Made by a program: the position numbers. A DNA stretch of 46,896 bases from a plasmid. Every line of letters begins with the position of its first letter. Position 1 is the stretch's first letter. This document shows positions 3,001 through 9,000 of the stretch, piece by piece. The DNA lies in sequence record NZ_CP107261.1. One strand, given 5' to 3'.

Positions 3001-6000
3001 CAACGGTCACTATAAAGGGGAATTACTGTGAAATCCGGGTCGCTTGCTGCACGCATTAAATCAAACATAGTTACCTCCACACTGTTTTTATATACAGTAT
3101 TATTGACTTATTGAGCGCACTTTCAAGTTTTGATTTACAGCTTAGCTCTGCTGCTTATCGCCAAAACCACCATTTGTCTCCCAGACTCCGTGTGCTGGTT
3201 ATCTCCTGCCATCGCTTAAAAGGTCGCAGCGTGCCGGCAAAATTCAAGCCACCCGCTGCGGCACCCGTTCGCACTCCTTCCCCCTGGTCAGTCGCTTGCG
3301 CTGCGGCTTAGCATCCGGGGCATGACTTTTACCTCATGGCACGTTGCCTCCCTTCGCTCATGGCGGGAGATAACGACCAACCTTCGAAAGGAGGACGGCA
3401 AAAGAAATTTTTTGAGAAAGGTAAAAAGGAGAAAGCAATGGATCTATACACACTTCTGACGGCAACCCGTGGACTCCAGATTCTGCAAAAAAATAGCTGG
3501 CCAGCCCTGGCACTGAATATTGCAGAGAATGGCTGTCAAATGACGATGACCGGCAAAATTAGCCCTGAAGGGCTCGTCAGTTTGTTACCGCAGCTGGCAG
3601 AACGCGGGCATCTTGCAAAAGGTGCTGTAACTGGTCTGGAACTGTTGTGTGGTAAAAATGCTGTGGAGGCCACGATCTGGGCCCAGGCAAGCGGTCGCAC
3701 TGTTAACGTTGATGTGAGTTTGAATGGGGTCCCTCAGGAACAGACTTTGTGCCAGGATTATCTGAAATTGGCCCTTCAGGATGATCTGTGGGTCCTCTGC
3801 AGTGACCTGTGGAGGGACGCTGAGAAAATTCTTCTGCATACCGGCGCCCGCTACGATGGAGCTCATATCTTTGAACGTGAAAGCCAGAATTTTATTGTTG
3901 CAGCCGAAGCGCTGTCAGAACTTCCTCCGACGGTAAAGCCCGGTGAGATGCTGCTGCAGGCATGGCTGGCTGAAATCCTGCAACACGGCTCTGAGGTGCT
4001 GGCGATCTGCCTCGTTGTATATCGCGATTATGGAATGCTCCGGATAAGTGAATTTTGTATGCCTGAGGTTTGCGTTATCCGTCCTAACTCCCTCGTTAGG
4101 CACTGGCTAAATCGTGAGCATGTATCCACTTTGACAGGGATTGCGCGCCGAAATATCGCGATTGAGCGTGAAATCACCTCAAGCTTTGAAAAGGCTAAAT
4201 TATTATCAGACGCTTAGTCGCGCAGAATACATAAAAATCATGTTATACCCACTGGCCAGCTTATGCTGGCCGATTTGATTTTACTCAGTAAAGAACTCGT
4301 AAACTCCATTGTCCTTGCCGCGCCAGCGCGGCGGAGAACTATAGCGTGCCTTCTCTTTATCCTGAACGCATCTAATCCAAAGGTTATCCTTATCGCTATA
4401 CTCTGCTGTGCGGTATTTTCAACGCACAACATATCTTCTAGAGACCTATGGCTAAGTAACCTTAAACGTCCGATTGTTTACTTAGAATAAGTTTGTTTTG
4501 GTTTTTAGTATCAATTATTCTAAAGGCACCATCCTTATCAATGATTAATTGATGAGAGTTGAGCGTGATGATGGTTTGATTTGCATTAGAAGTGGTAATG
4601 CCAGAGTTGATAGACCATTCTAGAGGGTAATTTTTATTTAATTCATCAATTGCTTCATTGATGATATTTTTCGCATCGTCTAGGTTTGCCGCTTTGCGTG
4701 ATTTTTCCAATCTAATTAGGAGGAAACTCAAACCCTCCTCTGCATACTTTTTCTTAAATTCATCCTTAAATTCTTCTACCTGTACATGACCCCAGCCAAC
4801 GAAGTTTGTTGATTTTCGGAGGTTGAATTCCTCCATGTCCGTTTCAAGCTCCGACCTTGCTTCTTTCGGTGTGCTGGCAGGAATGGGTGAGTCTTCTTCT
4901 TTAAGAACGCCTTCGTTCTCCACCTGTTTCGAAGAAAATAAGGATTTAAAAAAAAGTTGCAGTTTTCTCATAAGTAATCCGGTGAGTGACTATATCGAAA
5001 AATATACCATGGAATATGGTAATTTGTTAGTCAATGGATTTACCAGTATTAAATGCCAATAATTTAGTTTGGCTTTTAAATGTGATGTGCATATGTTCAA
5101 TCTTATATGGGTTTTGAACTTTTCACGTTAAGATTATACGAAGCATGATTAAACATACTCTTGTCTAAAAATCATGATGTCGTGAAATCCGTTTTTATGC
5201 TGGGCCAACTCAGCGGAAATTTGCGCCGTGCCTTCACTTTAGCCCGAACGCTCCAGATGCAAGGGTTCGCTTTGCCGGCATCCTCGCCCGGTCGCAGATT
5301 TTTACGCCTGATGTCGTTCTTCCCGTCGTTCTCCCGCTCAATTTTCGCGGGAGAACCGTCCAGATCGTCATCGCTTTTATCTGCGCTGCGGCCTGCGGTG
5401 TCGCCCTTGCATCTTCCGCTCGATGTCGGGCTGTCGTGTCGGCACGGCGCAACTGGGTGCCGGATGATGAGGAGAGCGTAATGTTCAGACTGACCTGTAT
5501 TGATCTCGATAATGGCGAGTTTGCCGTCTATCTCAATAACCACTACCTGGGAAGTGAAGACGGTAGCGTTGAAAAACTGTATCTGGGGGATGTGCTGGAA
5601 CGACTTTCCAGGATGCCGGGTGTGCAGCTCCAGACCATTCAGCAGCCTGTGCCCGGTGATGAAGAATGGTGCTGGAACGATGTCGCAGATTCCGTGCTTA
5701 CCCCGTCTCATATTTTGCGGCGGGAGATGACTGTGGGCGGAATGTTGACGCGTCTGCAGCAATACCCCCAGGACGCGCTCTGCACTGGCACATTCTGGCT
5801 TGAAGATGATTTTCTTGCGGTCGATGGCTCGCTTGATAGCGCGACGATTGCAGCGGCGATGGAACGCGCTTATTACGCGCACGATGCGAACTATGGATTT
5901 AACTGGGATCACCTGCGGCTTGCCATCAATGAGGTAAAAGACCTATGAACACCTGGCTGACAGGATTTCAGACCGAAACCCACTGCACTGAAACCGATGT

Positions 6001-9000
6001 TTATATGCTTATTGAAGCTGAAAATCTTGCCTTGGCCGAAGCTGGCGCCATGTCTATGGGGCGAACCTGGTGGCCAGATGTGAAAGAGGACAGCGCAGAT
6101 CACTGCAGGCTATATCCGGAGAGAAAAGTCTGGTTCAGCAGCATAGTGTTACTGGATGACGTTGAAAATACAGTGCTGCGTGGACTGAAGTTCCTCGATT
6201 GGTGGATCGTAACCGGTACACCCGAATGGCCGGTGATCAGGGACAGATGTGATATGGACTGGCAGGAGTACACCCAATAACGCTATGCCCGGCCAGGATT
6301 TTCTGGCCGGTATTTTCAACGCACAAGGATGTCGTTTACTCCGCTTTTTATGCCGCGCCAGCGCGGCGGATATCAGCGCCGTGCCTTCACTTTAGCCCGA
6401 ACGCTCCAGATACAAGGGTTCGCTTCGCCGCCATCCTCGCCCGGTCGCAGATTTATACGACTTAGGCCTTTCTTCCCGTCGTTCTCCCGCTCAATTTTCG
6501 CGGGAGAACCGTCCAGAACGTCCTCGCTTTTATCTGCGCTGCGGCCTGCGGTGTCGCCCTTGTATCTTCCGCTCGGTGTCGGGCTGTCGTGTCGGCACGG
6601 CGAAGACGTCGCCGCATCGATAGAAGGAGAAGATCATGACAACCGCTTATCGCTTTATGCACCGCCATACCCGCAACACACTGGTTTCACGTGGCTGGCC
6701 AGCCACAATGGATATCGATACCAGCCTGAATTACTCGCGCGGGGAGGGCGTTGCGTTTTATGGCCAGCTCGATGCCGCGCAACTACAGCGACTGTTACCT
6801 GAAATCGCCCTGCGGGGGTTAATGAGCGTACAGGCAGTGCAGATGCTGCTGCCGCTGATCCACAGAAGCGAACTGGTCGTTCGCCTTTACAGGAACTCGC
6901 TGGGGCACCGTAAGGCTCATGCTGGTACCATTTCACTGGAATACGACAACTGTCCTGCTGACATGAATACGCCACAAATTCTCTGCCTGCTGAAAGCGCT
7001 GCGCGACGAAATCAATCACGTCTGCAGCTGCGTGGCGTCGGCAGGTTATCGACTGACCGAAGCGCTGCGGCCTGCCACAGAGCCACTGGTACTGACCCGC
7101 CGCACACGTAACTTTACCCTGACGGTGACTGAAGTGGAGCAGGTTCAGGACGATGCTGAATGGGATAACGACACGCTGGATGCCAGACTGAAAGCCGTGC
7201 TCGACGAGAAAGAAACCTTCCGCCGTCTGAAGATCCGTCTGGAGTGTAATGGCCGCACCGTCGGACAGACGCATGTGCCATATGCCCTGCGTCACCCTGA
7301 CAGCCCATCACGTGTCTGGTTTGACCGCCACTGGTTGCGGGATGTAGTGAAAACAGCCAGAACAGAAATCGATGTGATGATGAAATCATTTTCCGGGATC
7401 AAGATCGCAGCCTGAGTTGAGGCGGGGCAGAGCGCCCCGCTTTTAAGCAAAAAGGATGTCGCACGCTCCGCTTTACCGGCGTGACCTCCACGTTGTTACG
7501 GCCACGCAGGCGAAAACGTCCGTGCGGTCTGCGGCTAACGCCGTGCCTTCACTTTAGCCCGAACGCTCCAGATGCAAGGGTTCGCTTCGCCGCCATCCTC
7601 GCCCGGTCGCAGATTTTTACGCCTGACGTCGTTCTTCCCGTCGTTCTCCCGCTCAGGTTTCGCGGAAGAACCGTCCAGATCGACATCGCTATTTATCTGC
7701 GCTGCGGCCTGCGGTGTCGCCCTTGCATCTTCCGCTCGAAGTCGGGCTGTCGTGTCGGCACGGCGTAAGCCGGAACTCAGACGACACTGGCAACGGAGGA
7801 TATTTTATGAGCACTACTACCCCGGCAATTTATGTTGGTACTTACCACAAATACAACTGCGGCAGTCTTTTCGGCAAGTGGTTCGATCTCACCGATTTTG
7901 ACGATAAGTCAGATTTTATGGAAGCGTGTCACGATTTGCATTCGAATGAGTCCGATCCGGAACTGATGTTCCAGGACTGGGAGGGGATCCCCGAAAAATT
8001 CGCTTCAGAAAGCTCAGTTGACTGGGATTTTATTGAGGCCTACAAGCGCGCGGTTTATGACGGTAAGGATCAGGCTTTCGTTGCCTGGGTGGAGTACACC
8101 GGTGAATGTGATTATGACCAATTTGAAGAGGCCTGGTGCGGTGAAGCAGCAAGTGAGGAAGATTACGCATATGAATTCGTGCAGGAGCACGGCTTGCTCA
8201 GTGAGCTGCCGGAGTCGCTTCATATCTACTTTGATTATGCCGAATACAGCCGGGATATGTTCCTGAATGGTCTGGTATTTCTTAACGGGCATGTCTTCCG
8301 CAACTTTTAAGGGCAGGGGGGGAACCCCCTAAATTAAGGAAAAAACTATGAAACTTGATGCACAAACCCGTGACATCCTGCGTCAGTACAAAAAACGAAT
8401 TAACGCCGGTCGCCGTGAGGCCGGTTTACGTGAGCTGAGAACCGAAGAAGTGATCGACGAAATTTGCCATTATATGAGCTGCCAGTCTGCGGTATACATA
8501 GGCGGACAGTATATCCGGCAGGATCACCGTTAAGGTGATTCCGGCAGGCGGCATCCCCGCCTGTCAGTCCGCGGGAAAACCCGGGCAGGCCTTGCCTGCC
8601 GGCGGCTGTCACTGCGCCTTCGGCGCCACGACATGCCGCCCTGCATGACCTGGCAGCGCAAGTCAGTAAAGAAATTAATAAGGTAAAAACATGAGCGAAA
8701 TTAATCTTTCAGGCCTCTCAAAAGACGACCAGGACAAGGTTGCGGTAGATCTGGCCGCGTCGGGTGTCGCGTACAAAGAGCGTCTGAATCAGCCTGCGGT
8801 ACCTGAAATTATCGCGCGCGAGCAGCCGGCGCATCTTCGCGAGTATTTTATGGAAAGGGTTCGCCACCACCGCCAGCTGAGCCTGCAGTTGCCGAAAGCG
8901 AGCGACCCTCAATATGCTGAGATGGCTGAAGCGAATAAAAAATAACGTTTTCAGAAAGATAACAGCTACAGTTTTCGGTTTTTCTTTCCTGCACTGGGCG

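What the first reader, a model, noticed from the sequence alone, without database searches (positions are those of the whole stretch)
5481..7415. Uncharacterised genes directly behind Frpo copies A and B: candidate early-expressed anti-defence or establishment factors
In this window the third Frpo copy drives ardA, an established anti-restriction gene. Copies A and B drive an overlapping gene pair (5481-5948, 5945-6280) and a 259-aa gene (6636-7415), and I recognise no domain in any of them. Leading regions are known hotspots for anti-defence genes such as anti-restriction proteins, anti-CRISPRs and SOS inhibitors. Their position under ssDNA promoters predicts expression before second-strand synthesis, the moment when evading host defences matters most.
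Basis: inference. Interest (0 to 1): 0.75.

Follow-up and report, generated by a model that had tools for sequence, protein, structure and literature searches.

The report
Unknown early genes behind single-strand promoters
Three real but uncharacterised plasmid genes each sit behind a hairpin promoter that fires only on incoming single-stranded DNA, so they are probably switched on as the plasmid enters a new cell; both the promoter type and the largest gene family are already described, and what the proteins do remains untested.

Summary
Positions 5481-7415 contain two compact transcription units. Unit 1 is hairpin promoter, A1 (155 aa), A2 (111 aa, ATGA overlap), terminator. Unit 2 is hairpin promoter, B (259 aa), terminator. 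A third promoter copy precedes ardA.

All three ORFs are real genes: good Shine-Dalgarno sites, dN/dS 0.04-0.34, and hundreds to thousands of plasmid homologues.

The repeats are not canonical Frpo. They match the ardA/klcA-type "class 2" single-strand promoter (ssp2; Frpo'4 of Samuel 2024), whose start sites were mapped in pESBL. The true Frpo homologue lies at 9066-9519.

- **B** belongs to an unnamed but very common leading-region family (YubG/YchA/NgrC; F, pESBL, pSLT PSLT061). It appears to be family 10 of Samuel et al.
- **A1-A2** are PSLT056/PSLT057 of pSLT. In other plasmids they sit behind a different single-strand promoter class, and A2's upstream partner varies.

No Pfam, NCBIfam, PADLOC, PDB-sequence or fold match gives a function. 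No DNA-mimic fold was found for A1 or B.

Early expression is well supported by inference. An anti-defence role is plausible but untested. This replicon appears to be a 46.9-kb mcr-9 plasmid without oriT or transfer genes, so here the module may be a relic.

Verdict: ordinary-to-moderate interest, a new member of a known kind.

The parts
5192..5449 (-). Class-2 (ssp2 / ardA-klcA type) single-strand DNA promoter, copy A. Hairpin arms lie at about 5225-5265 and 5404-5449. On the folded minus (transferred) strand the non-template arm reads -35 TTGCAT and -10 TAAAGT, with the central AAA unpaired. Predicted start is near 5444.
   Evidence: Repeat family D1 and inverted repeat I3. DNA fold dG -68.7, z -6.3. 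Homology to the F klcA-upstream segment and the pESBL klcA- and ardA-upstream segments. Covariation in 18 of 50 pairs across 15 copies. No sigma-70-like site in the double-stranded form.
5481..5948 (+). A1: 155 aa, acidic (pI 4.3, net charge -15), cytoplasmic. N-terminal beta-rich domain (residues 1-72) plus a C-terminal helical domain (84-154) with weak similarity to the N-terminal part of DUF1380. Orthologue of pSLT PSLT056.
   Evidence: ORF and Shine-Dalgarno site. 59 homologous clusters and 698 plasmid records. dN/dS 0.12-0.14. AlphaFold pLDDT 73.5. hhalign to DUF1380 gives probability 68%, E 5e-5. No transmembrane segment.
5945..6280 (+). A2: 111 aa, acidic (pI 4.35), Trp-rich (8 W). Translationally coupled to A1 through an ATGA overlap. 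Orthologue of pSLT PSLT057. It is the constant member of the module; its upstream partner varies.
   Evidence: 525 plasmid records. dN/dS 0.22-0.34. Partner variation across 13 genome loci.
6289..6317 (+). Intrinsic terminator ending the A1-A2 unit: 9-bp stem with 7 G-C pairs, then TATTTTC.
   Evidence: sequence.
6345..6602 (-). Class-2 single-strand DNA promoter, copy B. Its -35 is TTGTAT, with a matching change on the opposite arm (GATACAAGG).
   Evidence: (dG -71.3, z -5.2).
6636..7415 (+). B: 259 aa, basic (pI 9.0), cytoplasmic alpha/beta protein of the unnamed YubG/YchA/NgrC leading-region family. Homologues include F WP_001005032, pESBL WP_001005022, pSLT PSLT061 and phrog_8919.
   Evidence: 31% full-length identity to the F and pESBL proteins. 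At least 5000 plasmid records. 207 clusters at 50% identity. dN/dS 0.04-0.08. Model pLDDT 71.6. Names and the Samuel family 10 row.
7422..7444 (+). Terminator-like hairpin after B: 7 G-C pairs, 5-nt loop, then TTTT.
   Evidence: Read from the sequence. It falls below the T-run rule of the scan.
7507..7764 (-). Class-2 single-strand DNA promoter, copy C, driving ardA (7807-8310).
3336..4217 (+). Hypothetical protein (293-aa ORF, annotated as about 281 aa in relatives). It is a remote paralogue of B and lies between umuD and promoter copy A.
   Evidence: BLASTP E 0.001. hhalign probability 73%, E 3e-5 over 220 columns. Bridging sequences P0133 and P0124 hit both proteins.
9066..9519 (-). The true class-1 Frpo/ssiD homologue of this plasmid, upstream of DUF905, parB-like, psiB and psiA. 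Given for contrast with copies A-C.
   Evidence: 72-73% identity to the F segments upstream of ssb and of ygeA, where PMC9849209 places Frpo2 and Frpo1. 69% identity to the ssiD sequence of Samuel Table S2.

Best explanation
The region holds two zygotic-induction cassettes of a plasmid leading region.

**Cassette layout.** Each cassette has a roughly 225-260-nt class-2 single-strand DNA promoter, one or two genes, and a terminator.

**How the promoter works (inferred).** During conjugation the minus strand of the window would enter as single-stranded DNA. The two arms of each element pair. This rebuilds a -35 (TTGCAT) and a partly pre-melted -10 (TAAAGT) that do not exist together in the double-stranded form. 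Host sigma-70 RNA polymerase then transcribes towards oriT until the hairpin is converted to duplex. By analogy with ssp2 of F, each copy may also stall complementary-strand synthesis and prolong expression of the genes downstream.

**Cassette 1** makes A1 and A2, two small acidic cytoplasmic proteins that are translationally coupled. They most likely act together as a non-enzymatic binder or inhibitor of a host protein. This is an accessory, exchangeable module.

**Cassette 2** makes B, a basic 259-aa protein of the ubiquitous YubG/YchA family. It is most likely a core establishment factor acting on a conserved host or plasmid target, possibly nucleic acid, rather than a defence-specific inhibitor.

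**Shown:** gene reality, promoter homology, hairpin structure and covariation, synteny, family membership.

**Inferred:** single-strand-specific early expression here, and protein-level function.
For: - **Promoter identity.** The repeats match the pESBL klcA- and ardA-upstream elements and the F klcA-upstream element. They also match the class-2-like Frpo*1 sequence of Samuel et al. over 72-78 nt on both arms, and copy C shares 31 nt with Frpo'4; Frpo'4 is itself 82-83% identical to the pESBL class-2 elements. Those elements were defined as class 2, with start sites mapped by 5' RACE, and their operons are among the six induced early (up to about 500-fold) in pESBL (PMC12672017).
- **Structure.** Hairpins have z = -6.3 and -5.2. 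18 of 50 pairs show compensatory changes in 15 copies from 8 replicons. T, A and T at -10 positions 1, 2 and 6 are invariant, and the -10 sits in an internal loop. No sigma-70-type site exists in the duplex form.
- **Roadblock property of ssp2.** Preprint 10.64898/2026.01.09.698686.
- **Orientation.** All leading genes are co-directional and point to oriT in the relative p707804-1FII.
- **Real genes.** dN/dS is 0.04-0.34. Alignments are essentially indel-free.
- **A1-A2.** In 13 of the 15 informative loci outside the window the module is preceded by a class-2 or class-3-like element. Both proteins are acidic. The coupling overlap is seen here and in pSLT. A2 occurs with full A1, with the A1 C-terminal half, with DUF1281, or with DUF1281 plus the A1 C-terminal half.
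- **B.** At least 5000 plasmid records. In F, pESBL, pSLT and Klebsiella plasmids it is the last gene of the methylase, hypothetical, DUF1380, B operon. That operon is reported as induced in transconjugants. B appears to correspond to Samuel family 10, which is encoded on the T strand at a median of 18 ORFs from oriT.
Against: - No expression data exist for this plasmid or for A1-A2 in any plasmid.
- The replicon appears circular at 46.9 kb. No match to its closest relative's oriT-relaxase-T4SS region was found, and no relaxase or T4SS domain appeared among the larger ORFs scanned. The trigger for single-strand promoters may never occur here.
- The -35 to -10 spacing is 15 nt on the non-template arm and 19 nt on the template arm. 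Promoter geometry is therefore assumed from homology rather than demonstrated.
- Protein function is inferred only from charge, size, coupling, distribution and evolutionary rate.
Confidence: 0.6

Rival explanations
1. A1-A2, and perhaps B, are true anti-defence proteins. They would be stoichiometric inhibitors or DNA mimics that block a restriction-modification, BREX, CRISPR or other system during entry.
For: - Leading regions are enriched for anti-defence genes, and many unknown families there are predicted to be such (PMC11541004).
- A1 and A2 are small and acidic (pI 4.3), like ArdA at pI 4.1.
- They are patchily distributed and swap partners.
- A2 evolves faster than B.
- They share a promoter type with ardA and klcA.
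Against: - There is no similarity to any known anti-defence family, and no ArdA- or Ocr-like fold for A1.
- dN/dS stays well below 1.
- B is basic, near-universal and highly constrained.
- No experiment exists.
Confidence: 0.3
2. B works with the orphan DNA methylase that it usually follows, for example as an activator, specificity factor or partner. The methylase-less copy in this window would be a remnant.
For: In F, pESBL, pSLT, Klebsiella and most Citrobacter loci, B is the last gene of the methylase, hypothetical, DUF1380, B operon. One member of the deep search is fused to an N6_N4 methylase domain.
Against: - In the window-type plasmids (this one, L001, L015, L017, L019) B stands alone with its own promoter and terminator. 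It is still under strong purifying selection, dN/dS 0.04-0.08.
- The fusion proteins look like deletion chimeras; DUF1281::B chimeras also exist.
Confidence: 0.12
3. The hairpin repeats are mainly single-strand initiation or priming sites, or replication roadblocks, and not promoters for these genes. A1-A2 and B would then be ordinary plasmid cargo expressed, if at all, from double-stranded DNA. In this transfer-deficient replicon the whole module would be an inactive relic.
For: - Frpo/ssi elements also prime complementary-strand synthesis, and ssp2 acts as a roadblock.
- No oriT, relaxase or type IV secretion system was found in the window.
Against: - The -35 and the critical -10 positions are conserved on the non-template arm across diverged copies.
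- Start sites were mapped for the homologous pESBL elements.
- Shine-Dalgarno sites and ORFs follow immediately, and a terminator closes each unit.
- No double-strand promoter is predicted.
- The genes are intact and conserved against the transmissible relative.
Confidence: 0.1
4. A1-A2 is a toxin-antitoxin pair or a regulator pair that controls leading-region expression, similar to anti-CRISPR-associated regulators.
For: It is a two-gene overlapping operon of small proteins, and toxin-antitoxin genes are enriched in leading regions.
Against: - Both proteins are acidic.
- Neither has a helix-turn-helix domain or a toxin or antitoxin family hit in Pfam or NCBIfam; PADLOC gave no hit either.
- A2 occurs with quite different upstream partners.
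Confidence: 0.05

Closest known systems
Class-2 single-strand DNA promoters (ssp2) upstream of ardA and klcA/ardB in pESBL/IncI1 and of yfgB in F (Wen et al. 2025, PMC12672017; preprint 10.64898/2026.01.09.698686); equivalent to candidate Frpo'4 of Samuel et al. 2024
   Same: - Conserved arms (GCCGTGCC...TTAGCC and GATGCAAGGG on one side, CCCTTGCATC and GGCACGGC on the other).
- A hairpin of about 225 nt.
- The -35 and -10 sit on the non-template arm.
- The element lies directly upstream of a leading-region gene, and one copy here also drives ardA.
   Different: - Three tandem copies lie about 1.15 kb apart.
- Two of them drive cargo (A1-A2 and B) that sits behind class-3-like elements in pSLT (A1-A2) and in F, pESBL and pSLT (B).
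- Identity to the pESBL and F copies is only about 69-73% over the arms.
- No start-site data exist for these copies.
Canonical Frpo / ssiD / ssi1-3 (class 1; Masai and Arai 1997; Couturier et al. 2023, PMC9849209)
   Same: Same principle: a single-strand hairpin promoter in the leading region that gives transient early expression.
   Different: There is no detectable sequence homology to copies A-C. The real class-1 element of this plasmid is at 9066-9519.
YubG/YchA/NgrC family of F-like and I-like plasmids (F WP_001005032, pESBL WP_001005022, pSLT PSLT061). It appears to be family 10 of Samuel et al. 2024 Supplementary Table 1 and phrog_8919.
   Same: B aligns over its full length at 28-31% identity, with shared invariant residues R10, H11, G20-W21-P22, Y103, R139, E166, D172 and the C-terminal P..R.W..R..LR..V...R helix. 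Same strand and same region.
   Different: - Here B is a stand-alone unit with its own class-2 promoter and terminator, not the last gene of the methylase operon.
- It belongs to a diverged subfamily restricted mainly to Enterobacter, Citrobacter and Leclercia plasmids.
- A second, remote paralogue is present at 3336-4217.
pSLT PSLT056/PSLT057 ('putative cytoplasmic proteins') of Salmonella Typhimurium LT2
   Same: 64% and 50% identity. The same overlapping pair occupies the same position between umuDC/samAB and the rest of the leading region.
   Different: In pSLT the pair is preceded by the element that also precedes the methylase (class-3-like), not by a class-2 element.
ArdA / KlcA(ArdB) anti-restriction proteins
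   Same: Same genomic niche and promoter class. A1 and A2 are similarly small and acidic.
   Different: No sequence match to ArdA for any of the three, and no fold match for A1 or B. B is basic. A2's fold was not tested.
DUF1380 (PF07128; YubF/YubJ-type leading-region proteins)
   Same: The A1 C-terminal domain (84-154) aligns to the first 80 or so residues of DUF1380: hhalign probability 68%, E 5e-5, and tblastn to the phage SSU5 DUF1380 protein at E 0.01.
   Different: The match is below Pfam detection. The N-terminal domain of A1 is unrelated. DUF1380 itself has no known function.

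Membership tests
Class-2 single-strand DNA promoter (ssp2, ardA/klcA type) | Sequence homology to the experimentally mapped pESBL klcA and ardA promoter elements | tested here: met
   blastn gives 68-73% identity over about 126 nt to L007 7103-7228 and 14050-14175, and to F 8489-8611. The alignment shows conserved arms. The class-2-like Frpo*1 sequence of Samuel et al. matches the window repeats on both arms, and Frpo'4 is 82-83% identical to the pESBL class-2 elements.
Class-2 single-strand DNA promoter (ssp2, ardA/klcA type) | Stable long hairpin on the transferred strand, maintained by selection | tested here: met
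   dG -68.7 and -71.3 kcal/mol, z -6.3 and -5.2. 18 of 50 pairs carry compensatory changes in 15 copies.
Class-2 single-strand DNA promoter (ssp2, ardA/klcA type) | -35 and -10 hexamers reconstituted in the hairpin | tested here: met
   TTGCAT (TTGTAT in copy B, compensated on the other arm) and TAAAGT lie on the non-template arm. T1, A2 and T6 of the -10 are invariant across copies, and its centre is unpaired. The spacer is 15 nt on one arm and 19 nt on the other, so geometry is inferred.
Class-2 single-strand DNA promoter (ssp2, ardA/klcA type) | Downstream genes templated by the T strand and pointing towards oriT | tested here: inconclusive
   Met in the closest relative, where oriT lies between mobC and the nikA-like mobA downstream of the same gene array. 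The window itself has no detectable oriT.
Class-2 single-strand DNA promoter (ssp2, ardA/klcA type) | Transcription only from single-stranded DNA, with a mapped start site | not testable with these tools
   Needs 5' RACE or RNA-seq on transconjugants.
Canonical Frpo / ssi (class 1) | Sequence homology to F Frpo1/Frpo2/ssiD or ColIb-P9 ssi1-3 | tested here: not met
   Copies A-C give no hit at E <= 1e-3. The hit is at 9066-9519 instead.
YubG/YchA leading-region protein family (B) | Full-length homology to the F and pESBL 258-aa proteins | tested here: met
   tblastn gives 31% identity over 256 aa, E 4e-19 and 3e-17. The alignment has 29 invariant columns. phrog_8919 matches at 7e-20 over the full length.
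YubG/YchA leading-region protein family (B) | Located in the leading region on the T-strand-templated strand, typically after methylase and DUF1380 and before klcA | tested here: inconclusive
   Region and strand are met. The methylase and DUF1380 neighbours are absent here and in L015, L017 and L019, but present in F, pESBL, pSLT and Klebsiella plasmids.
ArdA-type DNA-mimic anti-restriction proteins | Match to the ArdA profile or an ArdA/Ocr-like fold | tested here: not met
ArdA-type DNA-mimic anti-restriction proteins | Strongly acidic surface | tested here: inconclusive
   A1 has net charge -15 and A2 -11 (pI 4.3). B has +5 (pI 9.0). Charge alone is not diagnostic.
DUF1380 (PF07128) | Profile match | tested here: inconclusive
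   No Pfam hit. hhalign of the A1 family against 8 DUF1380 proteins gives probability 68%, E 5e-5 over 69 columns.
Known defence or toxin-antitoxin components | Match to PADLOC, Pfam or NCBIfam models | tested here: not met
   No hits.

The most novel reading that the evidence does not exclude
A1-A2 could be a new two-protein anti-defence or host-takeover module, with A2 as the effector and interchangeable adaptor partners (A1, the A1 C-terminal domain, DUF1281). Plasmids would place it under whichever single-strand promoter class they carry. The YubG/YchA superfamily (B plus its paralogue at 3336-4217) has no Pfam entry and no solved or recognisable fold, yet it is present in F and in at least 5000 sequenced plasmids. 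It could be a core zygotic factor with a new biochemical activity at the single-strand to double-strand transition.
Probability: 0.22. Interest if true: 0.7.

Novelty: new member of a known kind. Interest (0 to 1): 0.38.

Why it matters
Leading-region genes decide whether a resistance plasmid survives its first minutes in a new host. Here the backbone carries mcr-9.

These three genes are clean, bounded, single-promoter cassettes of unknown function, which makes them convenient candidates for experiments.

Two comparative results add something. First, A1-A2 keep a single-strand promoter even when the promoter class is swapped. Second, B moves between a methylase operon and a stand-alone unit. 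Both show that selection acts on early expression itself, and that the hairpin promoters act as recombination joints that shuffle cargo.

B also deserves attention because it is one of the commonest plasmid proteins without any family name, structure or function. However, the concept, the promoter class and the B family are already in the literature, so this is a candidate list rather than a discovery.

Tried and rejected
- **Family scans.** Pfam, NCBIfam and PADLOC on all three proteins gave nothing. PHROGs gave only phrog_8919 (unknown function) for B and a weak phrog_10258 hit for the A1 C-terminus.
- **PDB sequence searches**, with single sequences and with profiles, found no relative.
- **Possible relationships rejected.** A1 or A2 related to the DUF1281 or 103-aa genes that occupy the same slot in pESBL (hhalign). 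B related to DUF1281: the apparent link in the deep search comes from chimeric DUF1281::B proteins.
- **Phage homologues.** None for A2. Only a DUF1380 protein of phage-plasmid SSU5 for the A1 C-terminus at E 0.01. One Salmonella record in the phage collection for B.
- **Literature.** Searches for NgrC, yubG, PSLT056/057/061 and DUF1380/DUF1281 found no functional study.
- **Toxin-antitoxin and regulator readings** were rejected for lack of any supporting domain and because both proteins are acidic.
- **The 170-aa GTG-5436 start** was rejected because it lies inside the promoter stem.

Full report
**1. What is in the sequence**

- A1 is 5481-5948, 155 aa from the ATG. A GTG at 5436 would give 170 aa.
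- A2 is 5945-6280, 111 aa.
- B is 6636-7415, 259 aa.

The A2 ATG overlaps the A1 stop as ATGA. Each start has a Shine-Dalgarno site.

Three direct repeats of about 258 nt lie at 5192-5449, 6345-6602 and 7507-7764. They are spaced 1153 and 1162 nt apart, and each contains long-range inverted arms. They sit immediately upstream of A1, B and ardA (7807-8310; Pfam ArdA 5.7e-31).

A strong intrinsic terminator follows A2 at 6289-6310 plus a T-run. A G-C-rich hairpin with TTTT follows B at 7422-7444. The finding is therefore two bounded cassettes of promoter element, gene or genes, and terminator.

**2. Context**

The window is a plasmid leading region. The gene order is:
- umuDC on the minus strand (1372-3080);
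- a hypothetical gene (3336-4217);
- the two cassettes;
- ardA, a holE-like theta subunit, DUF905, a parB-like gene, psiB and psiA;
- hok/sok (Rfam sok at 13464-13634).

The nearest relative is Leclercia plasmid p707804-1FII, 94.8% identical over the region. In that plasmid the same gene array continues to mobC, then oriT, then a nikA-like mobA, a MOBP relaxase and an IncI-type type IV secretion system. All leading genes point towards oriT, as expected for genes templated by the transferred strand.

The window itself is different.
- Its two ends are contiguous in the relative (L001 2435-3897 matches window 45432-46896; L001 3898-6096 matches window 1-2196). It therefore appears to be a closed 46.9-kb circle.
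- After hok/sok it carries accessory genes, two full-length Tn3-family transposase genes plus a truncated copy, IS1, an IncFII-type repA and mcr-9.1.
- No match to the relative's oriT-relaxase-T4SS region was found, and no relaxase or T4SS domain appeared among the larger ORFs scanned.

**3. The promoters are single-strand promoters, but not Frpo**

The minus strand of copies A and B folds into long hairpins. Values are dG -68.7 and -71.3 kcal/mol, z = -6.3 and -5.2, with 0 of 200 shuffles as stable.

Homology places the repeats in a specific class.
- Against the F leading region, the repeats match only the segment upstream of the klcA/ardB homologue.
- In pESBL they match the segments upstream of klcA and of ardA.
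- Wen et al. (PMC12672017) defined these two pESBL elements as class-2 single-strand promoters. They mapped the start sites by 5' RACE; the klcA and ardA operons are among the six operons induced early in conjugation, with induction of up to about 500-fold.
- The Lesterlin-group preprint names the F element upstream of its ArdB/KlcA homologue yfgB ssp2. It shows that ssp2 also stalls complementary-strand synthesis until UvrD resolves it.
- Samuel et al.'s candidate Frpo'4 is 82-83% identical to the pESBL class-2 elements. Their Frpo*1 matches the window repeats on both arms.

The canonical Frpo/ssiD homologue of this plasmid is elsewhere, at 9066-9519.

Fifteen class-2 copies from eight replicons were aligned on the transferred strand.
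- They give a consensus hairpin in which 18 of 50 pairs carry compensatory double changes.
- The non-template arm carries -35 TTGCAT and a -10 of the form T-A-n-n-n-T (TAAAGT here).
- The centre of the -10 lies in an internal loop.

Copy B has TTGTAT with the matching change on the other arm. In duplex form the sense strand has only GCTGTC at the -10 position. The sigma-70 scan finds nothing upstream of A1 or B.

The predicted start sites, near 5444 and 6597, leave leaders of about 37 nt. The GTG at 5436 would lie upstream of the transcript. The start positions are inference from homology, not measurement.

**4. The genes are real**

dN/dS against orthologues is 0.12-0.14 for A1, 0.22-0.34 for A2 and 0.04-0.08 for B. 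Family alignments are essentially free of indels. None has a transmembrane segment or signal peptide. A1 and A2 are acidic, with pI 4.3 and net charge -15 and -11. B is basic, with pI 9.0.

**5. Protein B**

The word-indexed homology search saw only a narrow Enterobacter, Citrobacter and Leclercia subfamily. Other searches show a much wider family.
- tblastn shows full-length homologues at about 31% identity in at least 5000 plasmid records, mostly conjugative E. coli plasmids.
- These include F (WP_001005032), pESBL (WP_001005022) and pSLT PSLT061.
- A full HMM search finds 207 clusters at 50% identity. None has a Pfam domain except a few chimeras with DUF1281, DUF1380 or a methylase.
- Source names seen are NgrC, YubG and 'inner membrane protein'.

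These names, and the family's rank order from oriT, match family 10 of Samuel et al. Supplementary Table 1. The order there is klcA at 16, this family at 18, DUF1380 at 19 and the methylase at 21. Family 10 has 3556 members on the T strand and is annotated 'Uncharacterized', with a provisional ArdA label taken from 10 of its members. I did not compare sequences with that table, so the equivalence rests on names and synteny.

In F, pESBL, pSLT and Klebsiella plasmids, B is the last gene of the methylase, hypothetical, DUF1380, B operon. Transcripts of that operon rise in transconjugants. In this window and in Citrobacter loci L015, L017 and L019, B is instead a stand-alone unit behind a class-2 element.

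The gene at 3336-4217 is a remote paralogue of B. hhalign gives E 3e-5, and bridging sequences hit both proteins.

**6. Proteins A1 and A2**

Both belong to small Enterobacterales plasmid families. A1 has 59 clusters and 698 plasmid records. A2 has 39 clusters and 525 records. They are PSLT056 and PSLT057 of the Salmonella virulence plasmid pSLT, where they also overlap.

The pattern across 13 genome loci plus reference plasmids is as follows.
- A2 is the constant member.
- Its upstream partner is full-length A1, only the C-terminal half of A1 (residues 75-153), DUF1281, or DUF1281 plus the A1 C-terminal half.
- The module always lies next to umuDC, at the far end of the leading region.
- In 13 of the 15 informative loci outside the window it is preceded by a hairpin element.

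That element is class 2 in window-type plasmids. In the others it is the element that also lies directly upstream of the methylase in pSLT, F and pESBL. That is where Wen et al. place their class-3 promoter. The pSLT copy folds with z = -3.6. Keeping a single-strand promoter while the promoter class is exchanged is the best comparative evidence that early expression is the selected property.

The A1 model (pLDDT 73.5) has an N-terminal beta domain and a C-terminal helical domain, with no informative fold match. The C-terminal domain has weak similarity to the N-terminal part of DUF1380: hhalign probability 68%, E 5e-5, and an SSU5 tblastn hit at E 0.01. DUF1380 is another leading-region family of unknown function.

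**7. Interpretation**

Early, transient expression from incoming single-stranded DNA is a strong inference for these gene families in transmissible plasmids. Function is not resolved.

My working models are these.
- A1-A2 are a coupled, non-enzymatic binder or inhibitor module of accessory character. Reasons: small, acidic, patchy distribution, partner swapping, faster evolution.
- B is a core establishment factor acting on a conserved target. Reasons: near-universal, very low dN/dS, basic, Arg-rich helix.

In this particular replicon the cassettes may be silent relics, because no transfer origin is detectable.

**8. Novelty and score**

The promoter class, the principle of zygotic induction, the idea that unknown leading-region genes are anti-defence candidates, and the B family itself are all already published (PMC11541004, PMC12672017, PMC9849209, and the 2026 preprint).

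Three things appear to be new here.
- The explicit description of the A1-A2 module and its variable architecture.
- The link between B and the paralogue at 3336-4217.
- The observation that cargo moves between promoter classes.

This is a new member of a known kind and a reasonable experimental target. It is not a surprise to a specialist. Interest 0.38.

Noticed in passing
window 1-46896 (junction of 46896 and 1): The two ends of the window are contiguous in the related plasmid p707804-1FII, so the window appears to be a complete circular replicon of 46.9 kb. It has an IncFII-type repA (23039-24594). No match to the relative's oriT-relaxase-T4SS region was found, and no relaxase or T4SS domain appeared among the larger ORFs scanned. 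The closest relative carries an IncI-type transfer system.
   Followed up: partly
window 41246-42901 (minus strand), with 38721-40480 and 43253-43756: mcr-9.1 (colistin resistance; 100% identical to annotated mcr-9.1) lies next to IS1 and a two-component sensor kinase gene. A separate cupin-domain ORF lies at 28191-28766. Two full Tn3-family transposases are at 19051-22035 and 31147-34176.
   Followed up: partly
window 9066-9519: This is the genuine class-1 Frpo/ssiD homologue, 72-73% identical to the F segments upstream of ssb and of ygeA, where Frpo2 and Frpo1 are reported to lie. No ssb gene follows it; it leads straight into DUF905, parB-like, psiB and psiA.
   Followed up: partly
window 8691-8945: A plasmid-borne homologue of the DNA polymerase III theta subunit (holE; Pfam 1.4e-31) sits in the leading region downstream of ardA, separated from it by a 61-aa ORF. 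This is an unusual cargo that could affect replisome proofreading during establishment.
   Followed up: no
window 3336-4217: This hypothetical protein is a remote paralogue of B (hhalign E 3e-5, bridged by intermediate sequences). Its upstream region (3081-3380) folds only weakly on the minus strand (z -2.6), so it may lack a single-strand promoter.
   Followed up: partly
window 5162-5195, 6314-6347, 7441-7474: A conserved 34-nt motif (GGATGTCG...CTCCGCTTT) precedes each class-2 hairpin and is also present in the pESBL and F copies. Its role is unknown; it could be an UP element, an outer stem or a recombination joint.
   Followed up: no
loci L003 (pSLT), L004, L008-L020, L007 (pESBL), L002 (F): The element directly upstream of the orphan methylase (class-3-like) is duplicated upstream of the A1-A2 or DUF1281 cargo in many plasmids. 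It overlaps the annotated 103-aa ORF of pESBL and F, so that ORF may be spurious or dual-use. The pESBL segment upstream of DUF1281 also shares a 71-nt arm with class 2.
   Followed up: partly
proteins P0158, P0191, P0183, P0145: Chimeric proteins join DUF1281 or DUF1380 to the C-terminal part of the B family. They are probably products of deletions within the leading region.
   Followed up: no
window 4462-4971 (minus strand): A 169-aa ORF lies on the opposite strand between the paralogue and promoter copy A. It has no family match. It is annotated in the relative, but its orientation is atypical for a leading region.
   Followed up: no
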